64,000 bases of DNA. It comes from a virus. Position numbers and translations under genes: made by a program. The stretch is from the IMG/VR virus record IMGVR_UViG_3300050821_001343, positions 35,182-99,181 of that record. The stretch is one strand, 5' to 3'. Every line of letters starts with the position of its first letter. Position 1 is the first letter of the stretch. Of this stretch, positions 18,429-59,373 are shown in pieces. Under the pieces are notes generated by a model. The model was not told where the DNA came from, did not search any database, and was given only the letters and a program-made list of their open reading frames with translations.

Positions 18429-18472
18429 CGTGTCTTTGTGGCACGTTGTATCAATTACCATCGGAGAAAGAA

Positions 18473-20134
18473 ATGCCAAGGGCCATAGACCCCAAGTTAC
18501 TTCAGTTCGGATCGTTATCCGAAACCATCATAAATTCTAAATACGCACAATTTCCAACACAACAAGATAAACAAACATGGCCCGAAATTGCACGCAGAGT
18601 TGCTAGCAGCGTTTTAAGTGCAGTTCCAGCGTCACAGTCTTTGATAGATGAGTTAACATACCGCATATCAATTCGTCAAATCATTCCCGGAGGACGTTAC
18701 CTGTACGCGGCAGGACGGGATTACCACCAAGTCCAGAACTGCCTGCTGATGAGAGCGGAGGATAGTCGAGAGGGTTGGTCCGAAATCATGCATAACGCGT
18801 CCATGGCCCTTATGAGCGGTGCAGGCATCGGAATCGAGTATTCGCCTGTCCGAGAGGCCGGGGCGCTTATAAAGCGAACTGGAGGTCAAGCAACAGGTCC
18901 TACAGCCCTCATGCAGATGGTCAATGAGGCAGGACGGCATATTATGCAGGGAGGCAGTCGCCGGTCGGCTATCTGGGCCGGTCTAGGATGGGATCACCCA
19001 GACATCTTCACCTTCATTGACATTAAGAACTGGTCACCTGAAGTACGAGCACTCAAAGCCAAGGACTTCAATTTTCCCGCTCCTATGGACGGAACAAACG
19101 TCTCGGTAAGACTTGATGGAGAGTTCTTCAAGGCGTATAATGACCTTGAGCACCATAAACACGACCATGCTCACTCGGTCTACTGGAAAACTATTCACCA
19201 GATGCTCAAGACCGGGGAACCGGGATTCAGTATTGACACAGGAGAAAACGAGGGAGAAACACTACGTAATGCTTGTACTGAAGTGTCTAGCTCTGATGAT
19301 TCTGATATATGCAATCTTCTCAGTATTAACATGGCTAGGATAAATACACTGGAGGATATGCAAGCCTGTGTGGAAGTGTCCACGGCTTTGCTAGTTGCCG
19401 GTACGGTTTACTCGCACGTTCCATACGACAAGGTTGCAGAGATTAGGACCCGTAATCGCCGCTTAGGTCTGGGTTTGATGGGACTCCACGAATGGTTGAT
19501 TAAGCATGGTAAACAATACGGGCCGGACGATGATCTGAAGAAGTATCTGGAGATTTATGAGCAAAGCACCCTACACGCCCATGGATGGGAACGAAAGTGG
19601 GGACTCTCTCTTTCTGCAAAGACTCGTGCAATTGCACCAACAGGAACTATTGGAATTGTGGCAGAGACAACTACAGGATGCGAGCCAATCTTCTGTGTGG
19701 CGTTCAAGCGGAGATATTTGCAGGGGAAGGTCTGGAACTATCAATACGTTATCGAATCCATCGCACAACGACTTATAGAACAGGATGGAATTGCACCAGA
19801 TCAAGTTGAGGATGCCTATTCGATCACGCCAGAACGCCGGGTAGAATTCCAGACGTGGCTTCAGCAATACGTTGACCATGGGATTAGCAGCACGATCAAC
19901 CTACCGGCATGGGGAAGTCCGACGAACAATGAAGACACAGTTACAGACTTCGGCAATATGCTTATGAAGAATTTGCCGAAACTTAGAGGGATCACGTGCT
20001 ACCCAGATGGAGCACGAAGCGGTCAGCCTCTAACGGCGGTCAGTTACAAGACAGCCATGAAGCACAAGGGACAGATATTTATTGAGTCTCAGGATGTGTG
20101 CGATTGGACAAAAGGCGGTACGTGCGGAAACTAA
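18473..20134 (+). CDS. nrdJ: Ribonucleotide reductase, class II (AdoCbl-dependent)-like
   Basis: PGGRYL, NCLL, GGSRRSA, GEPG, NACTE, APTGT, ISSTINLP, C-terminal Cys pair; no beta subunit nearby. Confidence 0.85.
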   Translation: MPRAIDPKLLQFGSLSETIINSKYAQFPTQQDKQTWPEIARRVASSVLSAVPASQSLIDELTYRISIRQIIPGGRYLYAAGRDYHQVQNCLLMRAEDSREGWSEIMHNASMALMSGAGIGIEYSPVREAGALIKRTGGQATGPTALMQMVNEAGRHIMQGGSRRSAIWAGLGWDHPDIFTFIDIKNWSPEVRALKAKDFNFPAPMDGTNVSVRLDGEFFKAYNDLEHHKHDHAHSVYWKTIHQMLKTGEPGFSIDTGENEGETLRNACTEVSSSDDSDICNLLSINMARINTLEDMQACVEVSTALLVAGTVYSHVPYDKVAEIRTRNRRLGLGLMGLHEWLIKHGKQYGPDDDLKKYLEIYEQSTLHAHGWERKWGLSLSAKTRAIAPTGTIGIVAETTTGCEPIFCVAFKRRYLQGKVWNYQYVIESIAQRLIEQDGIAPDQVEDAYSITPERRVEFQTWLQQYVDHGISSTINLPAWGSPTNNEDTVTDFGNMLMKNLPKLRGITCYPDGARSGQPLTAVSYKTAMKHKGQIFIESQDVCDWTKGGTCGN

Positions 20135-20353: not shown

Positions 20354-21481
20354 TTAGTCATCGTACGCTAGGCTCTCGTACTTGGTGAAGTTGTTGACTT
20401 GCGCATAGACCTTACGGGTGAGAATCAAGCGATGCTCTGGCGTCCGATACTCGTAGACTCCCTTCAGACCGTTGAACGATACCAAGTTCTTCGGTTCGAA
20501 GTAAACTTCGTCGTATTCCTCGATAGGTTCTGCCGCCTTCTTGCCCTTGCCCACCTTGGGATGCACACGGTGGATGTACTCGATTCCGAACTGCCGGAAC
20601 GGGTTAACTCGAACTTCATTCTTTTCGTGATCCAGACGGACAAGTTCCTTTCCATTGAGAAGTTCAAACTGGGCCGTGTAAGTCTCGCTCCATTGCTGCG
20701 ACATCTTGACATTAAGCATTTCCATCGCCTTGACTGGAGTCTCATCGTAGCGATTGCACTCTTCTACGATGGCTTGTAGAATGTCGAAGCTAATTGGGTT
20801 GACCATGGAAGCGATTACGCCAAGGTTGCTTAAGTTCGCCTTGTTCTTGAGATTCTCCTTGCCATACTCCAAGATGAAGTCTCGGCTCAAACCGATGAAC
20901 TCAAGCGAGTAGTACAAGCGTCCCGGACGATTCTGAAGATGATCGTTGATCCCGAGATAGTTGTTAGTGGTCAAGACTAGCAGCTTCGTGGTTGTGAAGA
21001 ATCCATCGAACAGTGTCAAAAGACCTTGTTGATCGTCTTTGGTATACACCTTCTCGAACTCATCGAACAGAATAATGCAGGGCTGCGTGATGGACTGGAG
21101 AAACGTATTAAATGCGTCTCCGGTGTAACTGTTGTTGACAATCAGAGTCGGATAGCCGCGAGTGAGCCCTTCGATGGATAGCTTCTTTGCCAGTAAGGTC
21201 TTTCCGCTTCCCTTCTCGCCGCTCAGAAGCACGCCCGTGCTCTTGTGCTTACGATCCTCGAACGTGTTCAAGATGCGATCAGCCTTGTCGATCACGTCGC
21301 CGTAAAGACGGCTCGGCAATTCGAAGTCGGGAGCGATTCTCAAGAAGAACCCAATTCCCGGTGCCGCATCGACGAGATATGTGCCAACGGGAAGCTTGGA
21401 AAAACGCTGTCCCGGATTGTCTGCGCCAAGCATGAAAATGTCCTCACGCCTGAAAAATGTTGGTGCCTGTGGTTGACTCAT
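20354..21481 (-). CDS. AAA+ ATPase
   Basis: Walker A GEKGSGKT, Walker B ILFDEFEK, NRPGR arginine finger. Confidence 0.88.
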   Translation of the reverse strand: MSQPQAPTFFRREDIFMLGADNPGQRFSKLPVGTYLVDAAPGIGFFLRIAPDFELPSRLYGDVIDKADRILNTFEDRKHKSTGVLLSGEKGSGKTLLAKKLSIEGLTRGYPTLIVNNSYTGDAFNTFLQSITQPCIILFDEFEKVYTKDDQQGLLTLFDGFFTTTKLLVLTTNNYLGINDHLQNRPGRLYYSLEFIGLSRDFILEYGKENLKNKANLSNLGVIASMVNPISFDILQAIVEECNRYDETPVKAMEMLNVKMSQQWSETYTAQFELLNGKELVRLDHEKNEVRVNPFRQFGIEYIHRVHPKVGKGKKAAEPIEEYDEVYFEPKNLVSFNGLKGVYEYRTPEHRLILTRKVYAQVNNFTKYESLAYDD

Positions 21482-21730: not shown

Positions 21731-23230
21731 TCATCCCTCCAGCAATCTCTTACGAATTTCCGTTACGTTTTCGTAGCGGTGCATTTCCCCGTTCTTGAAT
21801 ACAGGCTTGTACAGACCTTCTTTTTCTTGCTCCTCGGTCTGATTTTCATATAGTACAAAGTTACCGTGCTCCTTCTCAACTCGCAGTAACCCACGGGCCG
21901 AATTCTTCATTCCGGTATCGGTCTTAGGCTGCTTGAATAGGGGCAACTTCTTTCCGTTTACCTGTCCCCATGTTGCCTTGATTGCTGTCCCAAGGCTGTC
22001 ACGGGTCACGTAGTTGTATGTGTAGCTCCCTATTCCGAACACGATGTTAGATGACGCGAATCCTTTAGCCTTCAGGCCCTCTAGGATTGCTTCTGCACGT
22101 GCCAGCGAGATACTATCGCCGTAGATCAGACCTACGTGGGGGTCAAGTTCTTTATAGCCCTTCTCGTTGATTGTCCCGCCAAACTCGTCCCAGAGACATT
22201 CGACTGCGCCTTTGAATTCTGGTAATTGCCAGTCATATCCATACTGGTCATCACCCACGATGATCTTTACAGGATCACCACTGTCCGGCCTGAAGACAAC
22301 CTTACCATCCCGGCTCACAATTTCATTGTGCAACTCGTGCGTGAATTCAGTCAGCACCTTCCAAAAGTCCCACGTATCAGATACGATGCTAACGATTCCT
22401 TCTGGATAGACTTTGTTAATCAACCTACGGAAAGTATTAATCTCCGTTTCTTCCCCACCCATGCACATCACTGAGTGTTCTGTTGCCGGTACACTGCCGC
22501 CAAGGAACGTGTCTGCTCCAAAGTAGTAGTCTTCCAGCAAATCCAGTGCGACAATCGTGTCGGTTCCTGTGAAACTCAACAGGTGCGCAGCCCCGGACGT
22601 TGCCGCGTCTTCAATCCCGCTCATACCACGGAAGGAGAAATCATGTCCCTGCCATGGTACGAATGCTTTGGGAGCACCAGTCTTATCCGCATAGTAGTCG
22701 AACATGCGCCGGTACTCATACGCCGTGGTTGCGGACGTAATCATTTTCCAGATTTCAGCAGACAACTGCGTTTCAATATAGTTTGTCAGCCAGCCGAAAT
22801 CCTGATGTGTGTTTTGGATCGTAAAGACCGGAACACGAATGTCTACTCTGGACCCTTCAGGTAGAGCCTTGATAAGCAATGGAAGGTAACCAAGGTCGTG
22901 CAGCTTTTCAATATGCTCCGTTGAAACCTTGTCACGACCAAGAGCAAGGTCCATACGCCGCTTGTACCGGGCAACAACCTTCTCCTTTGGTTCGTTGAAG
23001 AAGTTTGCTTCCCACGTGTCAATCAGCATGTTCTGGCAGAAGTATTGCAGGCCAAAGAACACCACTTTGTTGTCGAACCCACGGACCTCACCATCAATGC
23101 CGTTCCAATGCTGGAATAGCTTACCTGACCGGCAGGTAAAGTTCGAATATACCTTTTCGGTCTTGACCGGGTACTGTGCGTAGTGCCCGGTCTTGTAGAA
23201 GTCAGTTGCGTGTAGTGGGAAAATCTTCAT
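21731..23230 (-). CDS. Nicotinamide phosphoribosyltransferase homolog (Namat of NARP1-type pathway)
   Basis: TDFYK.GH..QYP, HDFSFRG, VPATEHSVM, SIVSDTWD, RPDSGDP, LIYGDSI, KNSARG. Confidence 0.92.
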   Translation of the reverse strand: MKIFPLHATDFYKTGHYAQYPVKTEKVYSNFTCRSGKLFQHWNGIDGEVRGFDNKVVFFGLQYFCQNMLIDTWEANFFNEPKEKVVARYKRRMDLALGRDKVSTEHIEKLHDLGYLPLLIKALPEGSRVDIRVPVFTIQNTHQDFGWLTNYIETQLSAEIWKMITSATTAYEYRRMFDYYADKTGAPKAFVPWQGHDFSFRGMSGIEDAATSGAAHLLSFTGTDTIVALDLLEDYYFGADTFLGGSVPATEHSVMCMGGEETEINTFRRLINKVYPEGIVSIVSDTWDFWKVLTEFTHELHNEIVSRDGKVVFRPDSGDPVKIIVGDDQYGYDWQLPEFKGAVECLWDEFGGTINEKGYKELDPHVGLIYGDSISLARAEAILEGLKAKGFASSNIVFGIGSYTYNYVTRDSLGTAIKATWGQVNGKKLPLFKQPKTDTGMKNSARGLLRVEKEHGNFVLYENQTEEQEKEGLYKPVFKNGEMHRYENVTEIRKRLLEG

Positions 23231-32613: not shown

Positions 32614-33825
32614 TCATTTGCTATCCTTTTCTAGAAACTTATTCGATACGATTTTCAACTGCGCCCTACCTACTCCGCGCACATGACGTTCCGGGACAGA
32701 CTTAATGACTATGCCCTCACGGATATTGGTAGCACCTTTGACTTTCGACGGCCCATCTACAAGAGATTTGATCTTCTCAAGATCAAAGGGTCCTTGATAG
32801 AGAACAGGAACCGATCTACCAATTAACGATACTACTATATCCATGTAACGCTCATCTGTAGGGTCTAACCAGTTTCCATCTGGCTTTCTAATATCAAATG
32901 GGAAGAATTGTGGCTCCTTGCTGCCATATTCAAAGTTGCCTTGAGTGGGAGTAACTTCACCCCAAAGAACATAGCCCTCATTCACACGACACCATTCCTC
33001 GATCCATGGATTAGCTTTCAGCGCCTTCCTCCAGATGCAATTACTCGTTGGTGCTTTCCATAGTGTCCGTGATCCTGCATACATCACACCGTCAAGGAAG
33101 ATATATCGTGCATTACTTCCGTGAATCTTCTCAGTGACAATAACCGGCTCGTGTTCAGTAAACACGTTCGGGTAGTTCTTGAATGCATCTACATCGTAAA
33201 CCGGGATGCCAAGACTTACACTCTCTTCGGCTCCTCCAATCGCGTCATAGAATCCAAGCGCATTCTTTACGCGCCGGTAGATAAACTTGACCCATCCACG
33301 GACCGAACGTGGGTACTTACGCTTCAGCTTTGGTGCTCCGCTGTTGTCTCCTTTAGTTTCCTTTCCAGCATCCGGGTCGTAGTGAGTAATTCCCAACATA
33401 TTTGAAACGTCACCACCCGGTGCTAAGGACCAATACCCGGCACTTGGGTCCAATACCCACGAATAGCCATCTTTCTCATGGTCTATAGCCCAAAAATCGG
33501 TAACAGGTAGGAGAAGTCCTTCTGACCACTCTCCACGAAACTTGCGGACAGTAATACGTCTGCGCTTCTCTGGCACAACGAACGCCGCCGTTGAGTCTTC
33601 AGCAGGTACACACATATACGGTTCCCAAATGAACCGGAACGGCTCCGTTTGTGGGACAACGGAATCCGGCTGGATATACACAGCCAGATCGCCAACTTTA
33701 AACTGTCCGCTTTTGGACACCACTTGGTATTCCCCAATGGGGATAATATCTAGGGTATCTGCGTTGCCGTGCTTCAGCACTTCGGTGATCTTTACAATGT
33801 TAGCTTGATGGTTTGCTTTCGTCAT
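32614..33825 (-). CDS. RNA ligase, DRB0094/Rnl5-like family
   Basis: N-terminal OB-like H.NAD.L domain, TEKIHGSN motif I, GE, FDI, REGIV, LKIVS. Confidence 0.85.
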   Translation of the reverse strand: MTKANHQANIVKITEVLKHGNADTLDIIPIGEYQVVSKSGQFKVGDLAVYIQPDSVVPQTEPFRFIWEPYMCVPAEDSTAAFVVPEKRRRITVRKFRGEWSEGLLLPVTDFWAIDHEKDGYSWVLDPSAGYWSLAPGGDVSNMLGITHYDPDAGKETKGDNSGAPKLKRKYPRSVRGWVKFIYRRVKNALGFYDAIGGAEESVSLGIPVYDVDAFKNYPNVFTEHEPVIVTEKIHGSNARYIFLDGVMYAGSRTLWKAPTSNCIWRKALKANPWIEEWCRVNEGYVLWGEVTPTQGNFEYGSKEPQFFPFDIRKPDGNWLDPTDERYMDIVVSLIGRSVPVLYQGPFDLEKIKSLVDGPSKVKGATNIREGIVIKSVPERHVRGVGRAQLKIVSNKFLEKDSK

Positions 33826-55076: not shown

Positions 55077-56081
55077 CTAGGAAACTGCCCTAAACTTTCG
55101 ACTAGGCATCTCTTCTACCAGATCGGCCAATTGTGACCCGAGAGATGCCATTGAAGCTTGTACCGATGACTTATAATCGGCATTCTTCTTTAATGCTTGC
55201 ATGTCCATGTCCGGGGTTATCAAGGCTTGCACATCGGCGGCAAGCTTGGCAAGGTCCTTATCCCCGGTAATGTTTCGTGCTTCGAACGTCTTGAGGAAAG
55301 CTTGTATATTCGTTACTGCCGATGTATGTAGCCGTTTGACGTTCCCATCTTCGCTCGGGGCCAATGCGTCTGCTAGATGATTCACCATCTCAGATAGGGT
55401 TTGACGCATGACTGCTGTAATTTCCTCAGTCACCACTGCCATTTTCGCCTGCATCTTCTCTTGCTCAGCTTCATACATGCCCATAGCCTTTAGGCTCTCC
55501 GGGGTTTGAAACGTCAAATACTGCCAGTCAAACCCGAAGCGATTACGGATTACATCAGGCGGAGGAAAGTCATTCGGATCAAGTAGAGTGCCTACTGGAA
55601 CTCCTAAGACTGTGGCAAGTTCGGCTAGGTTTTGCTCCGCCGTTTTCACCCGCTCGGGGTAGGCTATGGCAAACGTTTCTACCAGATCGGCACGAACTTG
55701 AGCATACTCACTCAGCAGGCCATTGACATGCTCTAACAGATCAAGAGGTAAGAGCATAACCCCCATGTCATACGGCAGGCAAAGGTCATACAACCTTGAA
55801 CGCATCTTCCCATCGGCTGATTTGATAGCCTCTAGCTCTGAGGATTCCAAGATGGTCTTTTGAATCTTCAAAAGCTTTTTCAAGCTTGCAGCCTGTGGGG
55901 GGTTCGATACCGGCTCTAGTGACTCAGAACTTTCCGGTACAGGTTCGCTTTTCGGGGTATCGTTCGAACCCCGTAAAACACTATTGGAAACCTTTTTCGA
56001 GTTTCCAAGCACTTTGAAACTCACGCGGAGAAACATACTTTTTTCAAGGATGTTTCCTGCAAGATGTGCTTTAATCGGCAT
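55077..56081 (-). CDS. DUF3150-like protein
   Basis: K.IL....L..I......R..L...LP...G..LLP...F...YP...D.P......RF.F.W helical pattern; ends EEMPSRKFRAVS. Confidence 0.6.
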   Translation of the reverse strand: MPIKAHLAGNILEKSMFLRVSFKVLGNSKKVSNSVLRGSNDTPKSEPVPESSESLEPVSNPPQAASLKKLLKIQKTILESSELEAIKSADGKMRSRLYDLCLPYDMGVMLLPLDLLEHVNGLLSEYAQVRADLVETFAIAYPERVKTAEQNLAELATVLGVPVGTLLDPNDFPPPDVIRNRFGFDWQYLTFQTPESLKAMGMYEAEQEKMQAKMAVVTEEITAVMRQTLSEMVNHLADALAPSEDGNVKRLHTSAVTNIQAFLKTFEARNITGDKDLAKLAADVQALITPDMDMQALKKNADYKSSVQASMASLGSQLADLVEEMPSRKFRAVS

Positions 56082-56161: not shown

Positions 56162-56494
56162 TTATAGAAAATATGCCTCAAGATATGCAATCTCCGCGTC
56201 TATGGCCTGTGACCTGTCCTTGTAAACTTCCGGTAAAATTGGCCCGTCAATAGGCGATAGATTCACTCTCCACAGGCAAGACCATGCGCGGGTAGACTCT
56301 GTAACCTTTCCGTACTCCCCAAACACGGCACGGGCCATATAAAAGGCTAGACGGGGCATCAGGCTAACAGGCTCTACATGTGAGGCCCGTTTAATTACGC
56401 TTGTCTCATCCAAGAAACAAGCGGAAAGCCCGTTAACTAAGAAACGGGCTTCGCCTGTGCTGTCATCAATCGAGATTGTTATGCGTTCAGTCAT
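56162..56494 (-). CDS. Conserved hypothetical protein (RASHVEP motif)
   Basis: KRASHVEP...W.V.LSP..GP.L...RS.A..AE..YLE. Confidence 0.6.
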   Translation of the reverse strand: MTERITISIDDSTGEARFLVNGLSACFLDETSVIKRASHVEPVSLMPRLAFYMARAVFGEYGKVTESTRAWSCLWRVNLSPIDGPILPEVYKDRSQAIDAEIAYLEAYFL

Positions 56495-56505
56495 GACTGC
56501 CCTTT

Positions 56506-57078
56506 TTACTTTGCAGATAATTGCTTTGCCATCTCTGTACATACGTCAATATATGCGCGGTATTCGGTGATTTGCTCTTTTGTATAACCGTGATCTTCCC
56601 CGATTGTTTGGTAATACTTGCGCCATTCTTTAATAGTATGCACTTCACAGCCGATAGCAATTTCACTGTGACTGCAAAGTGTTACCGCGTGGCGTGTCCC
56701 TTGAATGTAAAGAGGGGAAAAGGCCCATGCATCGCCACGAACCCGCGCATTACCGTAAACCCGCGCATTACCGTAAACCCGCGCATTGCCCCCAATTCGC
56801 GCATCGCCATAGACTTGAGCATCGCCATAGACTTGAGCATCGCCCGCTACCCACGCATTACCATAGACTCGGGCATTGGCATAGACTCGGGCATCACCAT
56901 AGACTCGGGCATCACCATAGACTCGGGCATTGTCATAGACAATGCTAGTTGCGGCCAGATAAGCCGATGGAGCAACGTGGGCAGTTTTATAAATCCAACC
57001 TTGCCCGTTTTCGTGTGCGTGCCAATCACTGTCAACTGACTGCCATACTCTGTCTAATACGTTTTGTGGCACTCTCAT
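56506..57078 (-). CDS. Hexapeptide-repeat (left-handed beta-helix) protein
   Basis: About 11 [AR]-V-Y-G-[DN] repeats (18-bp DNA units) plus an IGC..H....W C-terminal domain. Confidence 0.85.
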   Translation of the reverse strand: MRVPQNVLDRVWQSVDSDWHAHENGQGWIYKTAHVAPSAYLAATSIVYDNARVYGDARVYGDARVYANARVYGNAWVAGDAQVYGDAQVYGDARIGGNARVYGNARVYGNARVRGDAWAFSPLYIQGTRHAVTLCSHSEIAIGCEVHTIKEWRKYYQTIGEDHGYTKEQITEYRAYIDVCTEMAKQLSAK

Positions 57079-57085
57079 AAAAGCC

Positions 57086-57277
57086 TCATTGACCTTGTTT
57101 GACGTATTGGGTTTGAGTTTGATTGAACTCGGGTTTGTGAACTTCGCTTGTCACTTCGCCGATTTCGCCAAAAGCTTTGATGACTGCCGCACAGCCTTTG
57201 CCGTGAAATCCTTGCAAATCTACCGACGATTCGCCTGTGCTGTCATCAACCGTGATTCGTATCAATTCTCCGGCCAT
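57086..57277 (-). CDS. DUF2997-like protein
   Basis: I.ITV...GE..V...GF.G..C.........G.......KPEF. Confidence 0.75.
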   Translation of the reverse strand: MAGELIRITVDDSTGESSVDLQGFHGKGCAAVIKAFGEIGEVTSEVHKPEFNQTQTQYVKQGQ

Positions 57278-57319: not shown

Positions 57320-57763
57320 TTACGCTTTTACAAAAAGCATGTCAGTCTTGCCGTTCTTTTTAGGGCCATATCCGGCAAAGCGCAAACCTTGCTTTGCTGC
57401 TAGTTTCTGGTACTGGGTTCGCGTATATGCTGCCGTGAGTTTGCCCATGTACGCGGGGGTTAAGAAGTGAGAGTCATACTGCGAGATGAAAGCACTATAT
57501 GTGCCATCGGCCTGCAAACGAAAACCAAAGTCATTCGAGGCCCCCGAACCCATCACGCGATTAAATGGGCCTTTGCGAATCACGATATTCGCCTTATCCC
57601 CTGCCGCATCGGTGTAATGCGTGGCTTTGCCCGTGTAATCGTACAATTGAGCGGGGGATTCATGAAATTCAATGTCCTCACGGTTGAATCCCATTTCGAC
57701 TAGTGCTGAAATGAGGGTTTCCGGGTCTTTGAATTTCGTTTGGTTAGTCGAGTATTTAGACAC
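57320..57763 (-). CDS. DUF1257 (Ycf35)-like protein
   Basis: S.Y....T...D...L..AL..MG...DFGF....DGTY.....D......L...Y......A...G. Confidence 0.75.
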   Translation of the reverse strand: MSKYSTNQTKFKDPETLISALVEMGFNREDIEFHESPAQLYDYTGKATHYTDAAGDKANIVIRKGPFNRVMGSGASNDFGFRLQADGTYSAFISQYDSHFLTPAYMGKLTAAYTRTQYQKLAAKQGLRFAGYGPKKNGKTDMLFVKA

Positions 57764-57858: not shown

Positions 57859-59373
57859 CTAACGCATCATACGGCCTGTGCTTTCCTCTTCCACGTTCGA
57901 AGCTTGTGACACTCCGCCTGCGAACTGGTAGGCCCCCGGATAGGACGCTGATAGATACTTGCCGGAACTGCTACGCCGTAGGTTATCAATCCGCTCTGAT
58001 GCCGATACAGTCACAGGAATGATGTACTGTGCGGCCTGTGCCAGAGTCAAACCCAAACGATAGGCAGTGACGGCACAAGTCTTAATTTCGGCACCAGTCC
58101 ATCCCGTGTCATTCGGGGTAGACTCAATATCGGGAATCTGGTATTTCTCCCGGTAGATTTTCCAGATTGAGGCACGTTCGATTTGATCCGGTGCATCGAA
58201 AAAGAATATTGCATCCGCGAACCTACGCCGTAATTCCGGTGAAAGAGAATCGATGCTATTGCACGTTGCCAATGCAAAGATTTTACGATCTGAGATGGCA
58301 TCTAGCACGGCCTGTGCTTTACGCCAGTTTTCGTTCGAACTGCCGACAATCCCGGATTCCAGATCGGGGATTGAAAGAGAGATTACGGGCTTTTTATACT
58401 TGTTGCCAATGCCCTTGATAATCTCCGACTTACCTACTCCCGGCAAGCCTACCCCGATAGTTCCCCGCATCCCAATGTCTTGTGACCATGTGAGGAATCC
58501 ACCTATCAAGCCCGTTTTTACCCCGGACAATTCTGTGCCTGCCCCCGCCGCACCCTTTTCGATTTCATCCAAGAATAAAAGCACGTTTGGCGAGTCCTTG
58601 CCATTCATGACTCTATCAAGAAAAAGCTTGATTTCGCCAAGCCCCCCGATAGCGTCAAGGCTTGCCGTCGTCTTCAAAACCGATAGGCCGCGAGTCTGAT
58701 TGATAGCTTGCTCTTTCCGTTCCCAAAGTCCTTGAATGTCCATCTTCCCATTGGGAATGTCTAAGCACATAGCCGCACTTTGATCGGCGGGAAAGGCAGG
58801 CAGGCCGATTAGTGCGCGTGTGGCGTCTGCTAGCACTTCGCTTGATGGTTCGGGGAGTTTAGCGTCTTTAAAAGACGTTTTCACAATGGCCGTAATTTCC
58901 TCACTTGTGGGCAGGGGTTCGTCCAACACAAGGAAATCGTTAGCTAGTTCGTTCGGCAGGATGGCCCCGGAACTAGTCAAAAGGACTAGCATATTCCCCT
59001 TTGCCTTGTAGGGTTCGCGCAAGTTCCAAATCCCTTGGATAATAGGCGCATCAGTCCAAAACATGTGGGCATTGGCAAGAAACGTAATGCAATCGCCTTT
59101 GAGGAATGAGGCAACGCGCAAAGCTTCGCCAAGGTTCATTGTAGCCTCAATTGCCGTACCTGCCTTGCCCACTGCCGCGTTTAGCTCTGCTAGTGTGGGC
59201 TCGTGATACGTGTGCAAGCCTTTGACACAATCCCAGATAATGAAATGGGGCATTTTATCCTTTGCCCAAAGGGTTTTTACACGTTTGATTGTCGAATTGT
59301 TATCGAACGTGCGAACGGCTACCAGTGGAGTAGATACAGCGTGTGCAGCCTTAAAACTGTCCAAGAATTTCAT
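57859..59373 (-). CDS. Ycf46-like AAA+ ATPase with permuted motif order
   Basis: N-terminal degenerate AAA domain (WDC..GL, LP.EL, PLP...EI), IGGL..IK, LDEIEK, FLTW.Q, GLPGVGKS, ATCN, PEL..RF..IFFFD.P, GWTGAEI. Confidence 0.85.
   Translation of the reverse strand: MKFLDSFKAAHAVSTPLVAVRTFDNNSTIKRVKTLWAKDKMPHFIIWDCVKGLHTYHEPTLAELNAAVGKAGTAIEATMNLGEALRVASFLKGDCITFLANAHMFWTDAPIIQGIWNLREPYKAKGNMLVLLTSSGAILPNELANDFLVLDEPLPTSEEITAIVKTSFKDAKLPEPSSEVLADATRALIGLPAFPADQSAAMCLDIPNGKMDIQGLWERKEQAINQTRGLSVLKTTASLDAIGGLGEIKLFLDRVMNGKDSPNVLLFLDEIEKGAAGAGTELSGVKTGLIGGFLTWSQDIGMRGTIGVGLPGVGKSEIIKGIGNKYKKPVISLSIPDLESGIVGSSNENWRKAQAVLDAISDRKIFALATCNSIDSLSPELRRRFADAIFFFDAPDQIERASIWKIYREKYQIPDIESTPNDTGWTGAEIKTCAVTAYRLGLTLAQAAQYIIPVTVSASERIDNLRRSSSGKYLSASYPGAYQFAGGVSQASNVEEESTGRMMR

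What the first reader, a model, noticed from the sequence alone, without database searches (positions are those of the whole stretch)
58170..58660. AAA+ ATPase with Walker B placed before Walker A (internal segment permutation)
Seen in sequence (- strand): IGGL..IK..., then PNVLLFLDEIEK (58555-58581) and the SG...GGFLTWSQD helix, then RGTIGVGLPGVGKS (58426-58449), the pore-loop segment GIVGSSNEN, and directly IFALATCN (sensor 1) and PELRRRF. Established: canonical AAA+ and Ycf46 order is Walker A, pore loop, Walker B (IDEIEK...FLTW.Q), sensor 1, Arg finger. Here the beta3-alpha3 block has moved in front of beta1 with all catalytic motifs retained in one frame. This non-circular permutation of the P-loop core should keep the 3D active site but rewire the topology.
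Basis: partly seen in the sequence, partly recalled or inferred. Interest (0 to 1): 0.75.

Follow-up and report, generated by a model that had tools for sequence, protein, structure and literature searches.

The report
AAA+ ATPase with swapped core segments
A phage gene encodes an ATP-driven motor protein of a very well-known type in which two neighbouring pieces of the catalytic core have changed places along the chain; all catalytic residues are kept, over a thousand sequence clusters share the layout, and I found no paper describing such a rewiring.

Summary

**The gene.** Window 57862-59373 (- strand) encodes a 504-aa protein of a complete 99-kb phage genome. It has a motif-less AAA-like N-domain and a classic-clade AAA+ domain.

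**The swap.**
- The beta3/Walker B-alpha3 block (residues 264-301) lies before the beta1/Walker A-alpha1-beta2-pore loop-alpha2 block (302-360).
- All 343 aligned relatives share this order.
- E270, K315 and N372 are invariant; R384 is in 342 of 343.

**Evidence that it is real.**
- Normal-order relatives on plasmids carry the same neighbour genes (DUF1257, DUF2997, DUF3150).
- The family profile hits them in four out-of-order pieces. With the two blocks exchanged it gives one end-to-end hit, 39-46 bits higher.
- AlphaFold2 is confident (pLDDT 90). The domain superposes on Vps4, spastin and p97 D2 (Z about 16) except for about 40 residues.
- Residue couplings pair the moved strand with the sensor-1 strand.

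**Limits.**
- I could not inspect model coordinates.
- Activity, ring assembly and biological role are inferred.
- No paper describing such a permutation was found.

This scan had already noted the family on other DNA. I re-tested that note's alternating arginine: R383 and R428 are mutually exclusive.

The parts
57859..59373 (-). Whole gene: 504-aa two-domain AAA ATPase (P0001), including the stop codon
   Evidence: Pfam AAA PF00004 scores 40.2 bits against a cut-off of 21.2. There are 1043 clusters at E<1e-30.
58669..59373 (-). Residues 1-235: N-terminal alpha/beta domain plus helical lid. It resembles an AAA D1 domain but has no Walker motifs (a pseudo-ATPase domain).
   Evidence: The whole model aligns to p97/Cdc48 D1-D2 (Z 18, about 399 residues). 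PHROG 8638 covers residues 11-252. It is homologous to the N-domain of normal-order relatives (133 bits).
58585..58668 (-). Residues 236-263: GGL motif and helix alpha0 that open the active AAA domain, then new junction 1 (N263|V264)
   Evidence: Helix 246-257 in the model. G243, G244 and K249 are conserved. Breakpoint scan.
58471..58584 (-). Block B, residues 264-301, the moved block: beta3 with Walker B (D269, E270), the conserved EKxxAGxGTDxSG loop (pore loop 2 position) and alpha3 (FLTWSQD)
   Evidence: Strand 264-268 and helix 285-299, pLDDT 83-94. It matches the Walker B region of canonical proteins out of order. E270 is present in 343/343. Residue couplings to strand 365-371 rank 13, 20, 21 and 33 of 12,403.
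58294..58470 (-). Block A, residues 302-360: beta1, Walker A (G309..K315 S316), alpha1, beta2, pore loop 1 (IVG 342-344) and alpha2
   Evidence: Pfam AAA stretch 308-352 maps to profile positions 4-48. K315 and G344 are present in 343/343. Model: strand 303-309, helix 315-325, strand 330-333, helix 345-361.
58189..58293 (-). Residues 361-395: beta4 with sensor 1 (N372), alpha4 with the arginine-finger region (R382, R383, R384) and beta5
   Evidence: N372 is in 343/343 and R384 in 342/343. The region aligns to the sensor 1 / second region of homology of p97 and VAT.
57922..58188 (-). Residues 396-484: helical lid subdomain. The sensor-2 position is A428, within WTGAEIK.
   Evidence: Model helices 397-410, 427-440 and 454-469. 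Arginine at 428 and arginine at 383 are mutually exclusive across the family.
57320..57763 (-). Downstream partner gene, 147 aa, DUF1257 (Ycf35-like)
   Evidence: Homologues were found in 52 of 81 phage loci scanned (80 IMG/VR plus Tunturi_3). 27 of 39 of them hit PF06868. The gene is annotated DUF1257 in the canonical-order plasmid module.
57086..57277 (-). Downstream partner gene, 63 aa, DUF2997
   Evidence: PF11211 at E 1.8e-4, below the family cut-off. Found in 44 of 81 phage loci scanned and 65 of 80 genome loci. Annotated DUF2997 next to canonical-order relatives.
56162..56542 (-). Conserved 126-aa gene of the module, no known family
   Evidence: Homologues in 35 of 81 phage loci scanned, in the same position. 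No Pfam or PHROG hit.
55077..56081 (-). Conserved 334-aa gene, DUF3150-like; the most constant neighbour of the ATPase
   Evidence: Found in 71 of 81 phage loci scanned and 56 of 80 genome loci. Weak PF11348 hit. The nearest Atlas clusters carry DUF3150 on 18-20% of members. AlphaFold2 pLDDT 90, but no clear fold match in the PDB.

Best explanation
**What it is.** The gene encodes a phage member of the Ycf46-like branch of classic-clade AAA+ ATPases. It has an inactive AAA-like N-domain followed by one catalytic AAA domain.

**The rearrangement.** In the catalytic domain two adjacent segments have exchanged places along the chain. The beta3 (Walker B)-pore loop 2-alpha3 block (residues 264-301) now comes before the beta1 (Walker A)-alpha1-beta2-pore loop 1-alpha2 block (302-360). 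The chain order of the strands is therefore 3-1-2-4-5 instead of 1-2-3-4-5.

**Why the fold can survive.** The three new connections are alpha0 to beta3, alpha3 to beta1, and alpha2 to beta4. Each shifts its target by only one or two strands, and all crossovers stay right-handed. The usual sheet (5-1-4-3-2 in space) and the usual ATP site can therefore form: K315/S316, D269/E270, N372, R384, plus R383 or, in other members, R428.

**Most likely origin (inferred).** A tandem duplication of the internal A-B stretch occurred in a normal-order ancestor that already sat in the DUF1257-DUF2997-DUF3150 module. The first A copy and the last B copy were then lost.

**Most likely activity (inferred).** It is an ATP-hydrolysing ring-forming remodeller, expressed from the phage's replication and nucleotide-metabolism gene arm. 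It acts on or together with the small module proteins.

**My odds.**
- The swap is real and the fold is kept: about 0.85-0.9.
- The enzyme is an active ATPase: about 0.75.
- It works with the module proteins: about 0.5.
For: **Shown here**
1. The order is conserved in all 343 aligned relatives. E270, K315, N372, G312 and G344 are invariant, and R384 is in 342 of 343. The Walker B to Walker A spacing is 38-45 residues in all 317 pattern-matched sequences (40 in 234).
2. Family size: 1043 clusters at 50% identity with E<1e-30, 458 IMG/VR contigs and 533 places in bacterial genomes, mostly Acidobacteriota.
3. A normal-order homologue exists with a homologous N-domain and the same neighbours. The Ca. 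Manganitrophus plasmid ATPase has GGL at 224, Walker A at 249, Walker B at 304 and sensor 1 at 347, followed by DUF1257, DUF2997 and DUF3150 genes.
4. The native family profile gives four out-of-order hits on three normal-order proteins. The block-exchanged profile gives one hit with +46, +39 and +45 bits. Breakpoint optima are sharp at 264, 301 and 360. Four control swaps lower the score.
5. The AlphaFold2 model has pLDDT 89.9 and pTM 0.77, with strands and helices as expected.
6. VIA-align second look at Foldseek's own PDB matches: Vps4 6bmf_B Z 16.6, rmsd 3.2 Å, 213 aligned; spastin 6p07_B Z 16.2, 2.9 Å, 210 aligned; p97 D2 6g2v Z 15.8, 2.8 Å, 200 aligned. These are out of about 255 domain residues, so roughly everything aligns except a stretch the size of the moved block.
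7. Pseudolikelihood residue couplings (effective sequence number 228):
   - moved strand with beta4: ranks 13, 20, 21, 33, in parallel register
   - beta1 with beta5: rank 28
   - beta1 with beta4: rank 81
   - moved strand with beta2: rank 148
   - moved strand with beta1 or beta5: none among the top 161
8. The module is syntenic in the phage loci scanned (80 IMG/VR plus Tunturi_3): DUF1257 in 52, DUF2997 in 44, DUF3150-like in 71 of 81.
Against: - I could not read the model's coordinates. That the DEIEK strand occupies the beta3 slot rests on couplings, which are modest for beta3-beta2 and beta1-beta4, and on aligned lengths.
- AlphaFold2 and my couplings use the same alignment, so they are not independent of each other.
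- The beta4-beta5 pair also shows two strong couplings (ranks 11 and 145), although these strands are not neighbours in the canonical sheet.
- There are no biochemical data on ATP hydrolysis, ring formation or partners.
- Pore loop 1 has an aliphatic residue (L/I-V-G) instead of the usual aromatic one, so classical substrate threading is uncertain.
- The duplication-and-loss origin is a model. I found no intermediate with two copies of block A or block B; one of 343 sequences matched a Walker-B-like pattern both before and after Walker A and I did not examine it.
Confidence: 0.85

Rival explanations
1. Assembly or gene-calling artefact: the order Walker B then Walker A arises from a chimeric or misjoined contig.
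For: The window comes from a metagenome assembly. In the runs laid, no contig bridges junction 1 at 58584/58585.
Against: The same order is present in all 343 aligned homologues from hundreds of independent assemblies, at 35-91% identity. It is also present in the genome of the cultured phage Tunturi_3. Contigs identical to the window span junctions 2 and 3. The reading frame is open and conserved throughout.
Confidence: 0.01
2. DEIEK is not the working Walker B. It belongs to a separate degenerate element, such as the end of the N-domain, and the catalytic domain either lacks Walker B or uses another acidic pair. The protein would then be an ATP binder or pseudo-ATPase with an incomplete core rather than a permuted one.
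For: The N-terminal domain is indeed a motif-less AAA-like domain. Sequence-order structural aligners leave about 40 residues of the C-domain unaligned.
Against: - DEIEK lies after the GGL/alpha0 element that opens the active domain in normal-order relatives.
- The block is homologous to the beta3-alpha3 block of canonical proteins, including the FLTW-Q-D helix.
- D269/E270 are conserved as strongly as K315.
- The strand couples with the sensor-1 strand.
- No acidic hhhhDE strand follows alpha2. The next strand is ATCN, the sensor 1.
Confidence: 0.06
3. The swap is real, but the fold is substantially remodelled: a new sheet order and a new active-site geometry, so the protein is no longer mechanistically an AAA+ motor.
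For: No coordinates were inspected. The unusual strong beta4-beta5 couplings, the aliphatic pore loop 1 and the frequent G-to-A/S change before the P-loop lysine show some departure from the norm.
Against: The rest of the domain superposes on Vps4, spastin and p97 D2 at 2.8-3.2 Å over 200-213 residues. All catalytic residues of the canonical site are invariant. The couplings fit the order 2-3-4-1-5 and give none between the moved strand and beta1 or beta5.
Confidence: 0.08

Closest known systems
Normal-order Ycf46-like AAA ATPases of DUF1257-DUF2997-DUF3150 modules on plasmids (for example WDT77853.1 on Ca. Manganitrophus plasmid CP114559.1; also Bacillus cereus and Treponema succinifaciens plasmid proteins)
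   Same: The N-domain is homologous (133 bits) and every segment of the AAA domain is homologous. The neighbour genes are the same (DUF1257, DUF2997, DUF3150). Length is similar, 474-558 aa.
   Different: These proteins have the standard order Walker A, pore loop, Walker B, sensor 1. The window's protein has the Walker B block in front. Identity is only about 24-30% (tblastn, partial coverage for B. cereus). The arginine-finger stretch is two residues shorter here (ELRRRF against ELLRAERW or LLRKGRF).
Classic-clade AAA+ ATPases (Vps4, spastin, p97/Cdc48 D2, VAT; Pfam PF00004)
   Same: The fold of the large and lid subdomains (Z 15.8-16.6, 2.8-3.2 Å), Walker A, Walker B, sensor 1, arginine fingers and alanine at the sensor-2 position in this member. 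The tandem D1-D2-like layout resembles p97.
   Different: The linear order of the core elements; an inactive, motif-less first domain; an aliphatic instead of aromatic pore loop 1.
Circularly permuted GTPases (YlqF/RbgA, YjeQ/RsgA; from my own knowledge, not tested here)
   Same: They are a precedent that a P-loop NTPase core tolerates reordering of its motifs along the chain while keeping the 3D site.
   Different: Those are true circular permutations, with new N- and C-termini of the domain (G4-G5-G1-G2-G3), in the GTPase class. Here the domain termini are unchanged, two internal segments are exchanged, and the protein belongs to the ASCE/AAA+ class.
IetA/IteA anti-phage AAA ATPase (PADLOC PDLC02196, NCBIfam NF042959)
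   Same: Weak local similarity in the sensor 1-lid region (22-26 bits).
   Different: The scores are far below family level (NCBIfam cut-off 510 bits). I saw no IetS-like protease partner in the module, though I did not search for one. This is shared AAA ancestry only.

Membership tests
AAA+ classic clade (Pfam PF00004) | Walker A P-loop GxxGxGK[ST] | tested here: met
   GLPGVGKS at 309-316. G309 is in 342/343; G312 and K315 are in 343/343; position 316 is S or T in 343/343. The Gly before the Lys is G in 186, A in 82 and S in 64 members.
AAA+ classic clade (Pfam PF00004) | Walker B hhhhDE on a core strand | tested here: met
   LLFLDE at 265-270. Position 269 is D in 338 and E in 5; E270 is in 343/343. 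It is homologous to the Walker B strand of VAT and of the plasmid relatives.
AAA+ classic clade (Pfam PF00004) | Linear order beta1(Walker A)-alpha1-beta2-alpha2-beta3(Walker B)-alpha3-beta4(sensor 1) | tested here: not met
   The order here is beta3-alpha3-beta1-alpha1-beta2-alpha2-beta4. Profile hits are out of order, and exchanging the blocks restores one collinear hit.
AAA+ classic clade (Pfam PF00004) | Sensor 1 polar residue at the end of beta4, and arginine finger(s) in the second region of homology | tested here: met
   N372 is in 343/343 and R384 in 342/343. R383 is in 271 members and replaced by R428 in 71.
AAA+ classic clade (Pfam PF00004) | Score above the curated Pfam threshold | tested here: met
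   40.2 bits against a cut-off of 21.2, in two stretches.
AAA+ classic clade (Pfam PF00004) | 3D fold: five-stranded parallel sheet in spatial order 5-1-4-3-2, plus helical lid | tested here: inconclusive
   The overall fold matches (Z about 16, 200-213 residues aligned). Couplings support beta3-beta4, beta1-beta5 and beta1-beta4, and weakly beta3-beta2. Model coordinates could not be inspected.
Ycf46-like ATPases linked to DUF1257/DUF2997 | Homologous N-terminal domain and full-length relatedness | tested here: met
   The N-domain scores 133, 91 and 74 bits against the three plasmid proteins. After the block exchange the full-length single hit scores 369, 253 and 240 bits.
Ycf46-like ATPases linked to DUF1257/DUF2997 | Gene neighbourhood with DUF1257 and DUF2997 (and DUF3150 on mobile elements) | tested here: met
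   Window genes at 57320-57763, 57086-57277 and 55077-56081. Conserved in phage loci and genome loci, and present beside the normal-order plasmid gene.
Ycf46-like ATPases linked to DUF1257/DUF2997 | Direct relatedness to cyanobacterial or plastid Ycf46 itself | not tested
   No Ycf46 sequence or model from a cyanobacterium or plastid was compared. The name rests on recalled motifs (RKGRFDEIFFV type) seen in the B. cereus and Treponema relatives.
Circularly permuted P-loop NTPases (cpGTPase type) | Circular permutation: the domain's N- and C-termini are relocated | tested here: not met
   The domain starts (GGL/alpha0) and ends (lid) as in normal-order relatives. Only two internal segments are exchanged.
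IetA/IteA defence ATPase | Family-level score | tested here: not met
   26 bits against an NCBIfam cut-off of 510. PADLOC gives 22 bits, partial.

The most novel reading that the evidence does not exclude
This family would be the first natural non-circular permutation of the AAA+/ASCE catalytic core. The chain order of strands is 3-1-2-4-5, folding into the usual 5-1-4-3-2 sheet. It arose once from a normal-order Ycf46-like ancestor and has spread to over a thousand sequence clusters in Acidobacteriota and their phages.

The rewiring changes which elements are covalently linked. The pore loop 1 helix now feeds the sensor-1 strand, and the pore loop 2 helix now feeds the P-loop strand. It may therefore alter how ATP state is passed to the pore.

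Within the family a catalytic arginine has moved back and forth about 27-31 times between a position beside the trans arginine finger (383) and the cis sensor-2 position (428). This would show that the two positions are functionally interchangeable.
Probability: 0.55. Interest if true: 0.85.

Novelty: new variant of a known kind. Interest (0 to 1): 0.8.

Why it matters
**A test of what the AAA+ fold needs.** To my knowledge (not checked here), the order of Walker A, pore loop, Walker B and sensor 1 is treated as a fixed signature of AAA+ and related ASCE ATPases, and is built into profile models and annotation. A large natural family that breaks the order but keeps every catalytic residue shows the core tolerates a rewiring that is not a simple circular permutation. 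It offers a natural experiment on chain connectivity. Swapped and normal-order forms sit in the same gene module, so folding, ring assembly and coupling between ATP site and pore loops can be compared directly.

**A practical point for annotation.** Collinear profile models see only fragments of such proteins. Pfam AAA matches residues 308-352 as its best stretch, so the Walker B block goes unrecognised.

**An unexplained module.** The family also marks a widespread module of unknown function (DUF1257, DUF2997, DUF3150) in soil Acidobacteriota and their phages. One cultured phage-host pair, Tunturi 3 on Tunturiibacter psychrotolerans, is available for genetics.

**The arginine exchange.** The alternation between positions 383 and 428 is a clean case of repeated relocation of a catalytic residue.

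Tried and rejected
I took genomic context from the search for related loci instead.
- **Mean-field DCA** on 235 columns gave noise dominated by rare aromatic residues. I replaced it with a pseudolikelihood model on 161 columns.
- **Complex prediction**, ATPase with the DUF2997 protein: no verdict (score 0.00). This says nothing either way.
- **Fold of the DUF3150-like protein:** confident model, but Foldseek found nothing at E<=0.001 and VIA-align found only generic helical bundles with Z<=8.4. No functional clue.
- **PADLOC and NCBIfam:** only weak partial IetA/IteA hits. The module proteins have no defence-family hit.
- **Single-sequence Pfam search of the 147-aa neighbour:** no DUF1257 hit. 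The assignment came from its homologues.
- **Sequencing runs:** no RNA holder listed. The contigs laid do not bridge junction 1 and leave gaps.
- **Literature:** searches for a permuted AAA+ or P-loop ATPase, for Walker B preceding Walker A, and for DUF3150, DUF2997, and Ycf46 with phage found no description of this arrangement. The Tunturi virus paper does not discuss the ATPase. The library does not cover subscription journals.
- **Recombination as the cause of the R383/R428 pattern:** a tree of the C-terminal part alone needs as many changes (27) as the whole-protein tree, so I did not adopt it.
- **Intermediates with two Walker B blocks:** one of 343 sequences matched a Walker-B-like pattern both before and after Walker A; I did not examine it. 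The 896-aa member is an intein carrier, not a duplication.
Full report
**Observation**

The - strand ORF at window 57862-59373 encodes a 504-aa protein, P0001.
- GGLGEIK (244-250)
- LLFLDEIEK (265-273, nt 58555-58581)
- GGFLTWSQD (291-299)
- GLPGVGKS (309-316, nt 58426-58449)
- GIVGSSNEN (341-349)
- IFALATCN (365-372)
- PELRRRF (379-385)

Pfam AAA matches above threshold but only in two stretches; the best is residues 308-352 on profile positions 4-48. No hydrophobic-DE strand follows Walker A.

**Where it sits**

The window is bases 35182-99181 of a complete 99,181-bp virus record with direct terminal repeats. The - strand arm that holds the gene also carries primase/helicase, a DNA helicase, RNA ligase, exonucleases and a nicotinamide phosphoribosyltransferase. 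The only cultured relative in the phage collection is Tunturiibacter phage Tunturi_3. It is a 97.6-kb podovirus of an acidobacterium, and its gp103 "ATPase" is 40% identical.

**Not an artefact, and a large family**

- A word-indexed search gave 1209 hits. The best 120 are full length at 44-91% identity.
- An exhaustive phmmer search of 1.84 billion representatives gave 1043 clusters at E<1e-30.
- 458 IMG/VR contigs encode a relative.
- 533 places in bacterial genomes do so. The best 80 are almost all Acidobacteriota MAGs (Terriglobia, Bryobacterales, Solibacter), often with several copies per genome.
- In my alignment of 343 sequences, E270, K315, G312, G344 and N372 are invariant, R384 is present in 342, and position 269 is D or E in all.
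- A motif pattern finds Walker B 38-45 residues before Walker A in 318 of 343 sequences, and in 77 of the 81 family ATPase ORFs of the genome loci, the other 4 missing the pattern.

**Homology test of the permutation**

- The family profile (A1) against PDB sequences hits the VAT D2 domain (5vc7_A) in this order: chain 321-373 with profile 304-356, chain 377-429 with profile 261-311, chain 424-501 with profile 366-438.
- A tblastn search of plasmids then found full-length but distant relatives.
- The Ca. Manganitrophus plasmid protein has the normal order: GGL at 224, Walker A at 249, Walker B at 304, sensor 1 at 347. It is followed by genes annotated DUF1257, DUF2997 and DUF3150. Bacillus cereus and Treponema plasmid proteins are also normal-order.
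- Against these three, the native family profile gives four local hits each. The N-domain scores 133, 91 and 74 bits. Then profile 293-352 maps to target 242-301 (Manganitrophus coordinates), profile 255-292 to target 303-342, and profile 354-468 to target 343-457; the other two proteins show the same out-of-order pattern. The moved block scores 20.2 (Manganitrophus), 16.3 (Treponema) and 26.7 (B. cereus) bits.
- When I moved the alignment columns of the Walker B block behind the Walker A block, each target gave a single end-to-end hit with a higher score: 369 against 323, 253 against 214, and 240 against 195 bits.
- A scan of breakpoints has sharp optima at block B = 264-301 and block A = 302-360. 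Four control swaps of other equally sized blocks lowered the scores.
- The event is therefore an exchange of two adjacent segments of 38 and 59 residues. The ends of the domain are unchanged.

**Structure**

- AlphaFold2 with 96 sequences gave mean pLDDT 89.9 and pTM 0.77. The elements are helix 246-257 (alpha0), strand 264-268 (Walker B), helix 285-299, strand 303-309 (P-loop strand), helix 315-325, strand 330-333, helix 345-361, strand 365-371 (sensor 1), helix 379-384, strand 388-392, then the lid.
- The whole model aligns to p97/Cdc48 D1-D2 (Z about 18, about 399 residues). The N-terminal 235 residues are therefore a second AAA-like domain, but without nucleotide motifs.
- The C-domain alone aligns to Vps4 (Z 16.6, 3.2 Å, 213 residues), spastin (Z 16.2, 2.9 Å, 210) and p97 D2 (Z 15.8, 2.8 Å, 200). 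That is out of about 255 residues. A sequence-order aligner should leave out about the 38 residues of the moved block, and it does.
A pseudolikelihood model on residues 240-400 (343 sequences, effective number 228) gave these ranks out of 12,403 pairs:

| Strand pair | Ranks |
|---|---|
| moved strand with beta4 | 13, 20, 21, 33 (parallel register: 265-365, 266/268-367, 267-370) |
| beta1 with beta5 | 28 |
| beta1 with beta4 | 81 |
| moved strand with beta2 | 148 |
| moved strand with beta1 or beta5 | none among the top 161 |

- This fits the spatial order 2-3-4-1-5 with the moved strand as beta3.
- Caveats: beta4-beta5 also shows two strong pairs, and AlphaFold2 uses the same alignment.

**How it most likely works**

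- Shown: every residue of the canonical ATP site is kept under strong constraint, and the fold outside the moved block is that of a classic-clade AAA+ domain.
- Inferred: the three new connections (alpha0 to beta3, alpha3 to beta1, alpha2 to beta4) each shift by one or two strands and keep right-handed crossovers, so the normal site can assemble.
- Inferred: the protein hydrolyses ATP in a ring, with R384 (and R383) acting on the neighbouring subunit.
- The rewiring changes the covalent links. The helix after pore loop 1 now leads into the sensor-1 strand. The helix after pore loop 2 now leads into the P-loop strand. This could change coupling, but nothing here tests that.
- The simplest origin is duplication of the A-B stretch followed by loss of the outer copies. 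I found no intermediate with two copies of block A or block B; one regex double match was left unexamined.

**Module and function**

- In the 81 phage loci scanned (80 IMG/VR plus Tunturi_3), the ATPase is accompanied, usually downstream, by:
  - a 147-aa protein, in 52 loci; 27 of 39 homologues hit DUF1257
  - a 63-aa DUF2997 protein, in 44 loci
  - a 126-aa protein, in 35 loci
  - a 334-aa DUF3150-like protein, in 71 loci
- The same genes flank the chromosomal acidobacterial copies, often in the order DUF1257-DUF2997-x-ATPase-DUF3150. They also flank the normal-order plasmid gene.
- In cyanobacteria DUF2997 and DUF1257 (ycf35) are a known gene pair (PMC4284462).
- The function is unknown. 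My best guess, at about even odds, is an ATP-driven remodeller that works on or with these small proteins during the replication phase of infection or in mobile-element maintenance.

**Arginine exchange**

I tested it.
- R383 is present in 271 sequences and R428 (the sensor-2 position, in WTG[A/R]EI) in 71. None has both and one has neither. The phi coefficient is -0.99.
- On a 326-leaf tree, parsimony needs 27 changes, against about 60 for shuffled labels.
- Trees of the N-terminal, core or C-terminal parts need 27-31 changes, so transfer of a C-terminal segment does not explain the pattern.
- FastTree error may inflate these counts.
- This window's protein has the R383/A428 state.

**Comparison with what is known**

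- It works like, and descends from, classic-clade AAA+ ATPases of the Ycf46-like branch.
- It fails one defining feature of the family as usually described, the linear order of the core elements.
- It is not a circular permutation of the cpGTPase kind.
- Full-text searches found no description of a permuted AAA+ or of Walker B preceding Walker A. That library lacks most subscription journals.
- I therefore class it as a new variant of a known kind.

This scan had already found the family on two other genomes.

Noticed in passing
Protein positions 383 and 428 (window nt 58223-58225 and 58088-58090); family alignment: Arginine at 383 (beside the arginine finger) and arginine at 428 (sensor-2 position in the lid) are mutually exclusive across 343 relatives: 271 have R383, 71 have R428, none has both, one has neither. 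About 27-31 switches are needed on the tree. This window has R383/A428.
   Followed up: yes
Family member P0162 (896 aa), from the representative search: It carries an intein of about 390 aa with a LAGLIDADG-type endonuclease region. The intein is inserted exactly between T and C of the sensor-1 motif ATCN (…FIAT|CLDGDTL…VHN|CNS…). Intein insertion in a conserved catalytic site is typical, and it fits this site being functionally important.
   Followed up: partly
Window 58669-59373 (residues 1-235): The N-terminal half is a second AAA-like alpha/beta domain plus lid, without Walker motifs. The protein therefore resembles a p97-type D1-D2 tandem with a dead D1. PHROG 8638 (unknown function) covers it.
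   Followed up: partly
Window 56506-57078 (- strand): A 190-aa YdcK-type beta-solenoid/hexapeptide-repeat protein sits between the DUF2997 gene and the 126-aa gene in this phage. It is found in only 3 of the phage loci scanned (beside the module in at least one) and looks like an insertion into the module. Its repeats also create long spurious ORFs on the opposite strand.
   Followed up: partly
Window 20354-21481 (- strand): The same phage carries a second AAA ATPase in normal order: Pfam AAA over profile positions 1-123, and PHROG 2376 'ATPase' at E 1.7e-86.
   Followed up: partly
Loci L088-L167 (bacterial genome contigs): The swapped ATPase and its module are very common in Acidobacteriota MAGs. 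Several copies occur per genome (for example at least 5 contigs of one MAG), some on megabase contigs. The gene order differs from the phage (DUF1257-DUF2997 upstream of the ATPase). Whether these are prophages or another kind of element was not examined.
   Followed up: no
Protein position 314 (window nt 58432-58434); family alignment: The glycine just before the P-loop lysine is replaced by alanine or serine in 146 of 343 relatives (GxxGx[A/S]K[ST]). Pore loop 1 has L/I-V-G rather than the usual aromatic-hydrophobic-Gly.
   Followed up: no
Window 21731-23230, 18446-20134, 32614-33825: The phage encodes a nicotinamide phosphoribosyltransferase, a ribonucleotide reductase large subunit and an RNA ligase (PHROG hits). 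These are ordinary auxiliary and nucleotide-metabolism genes of large phages.
   Followed up: no
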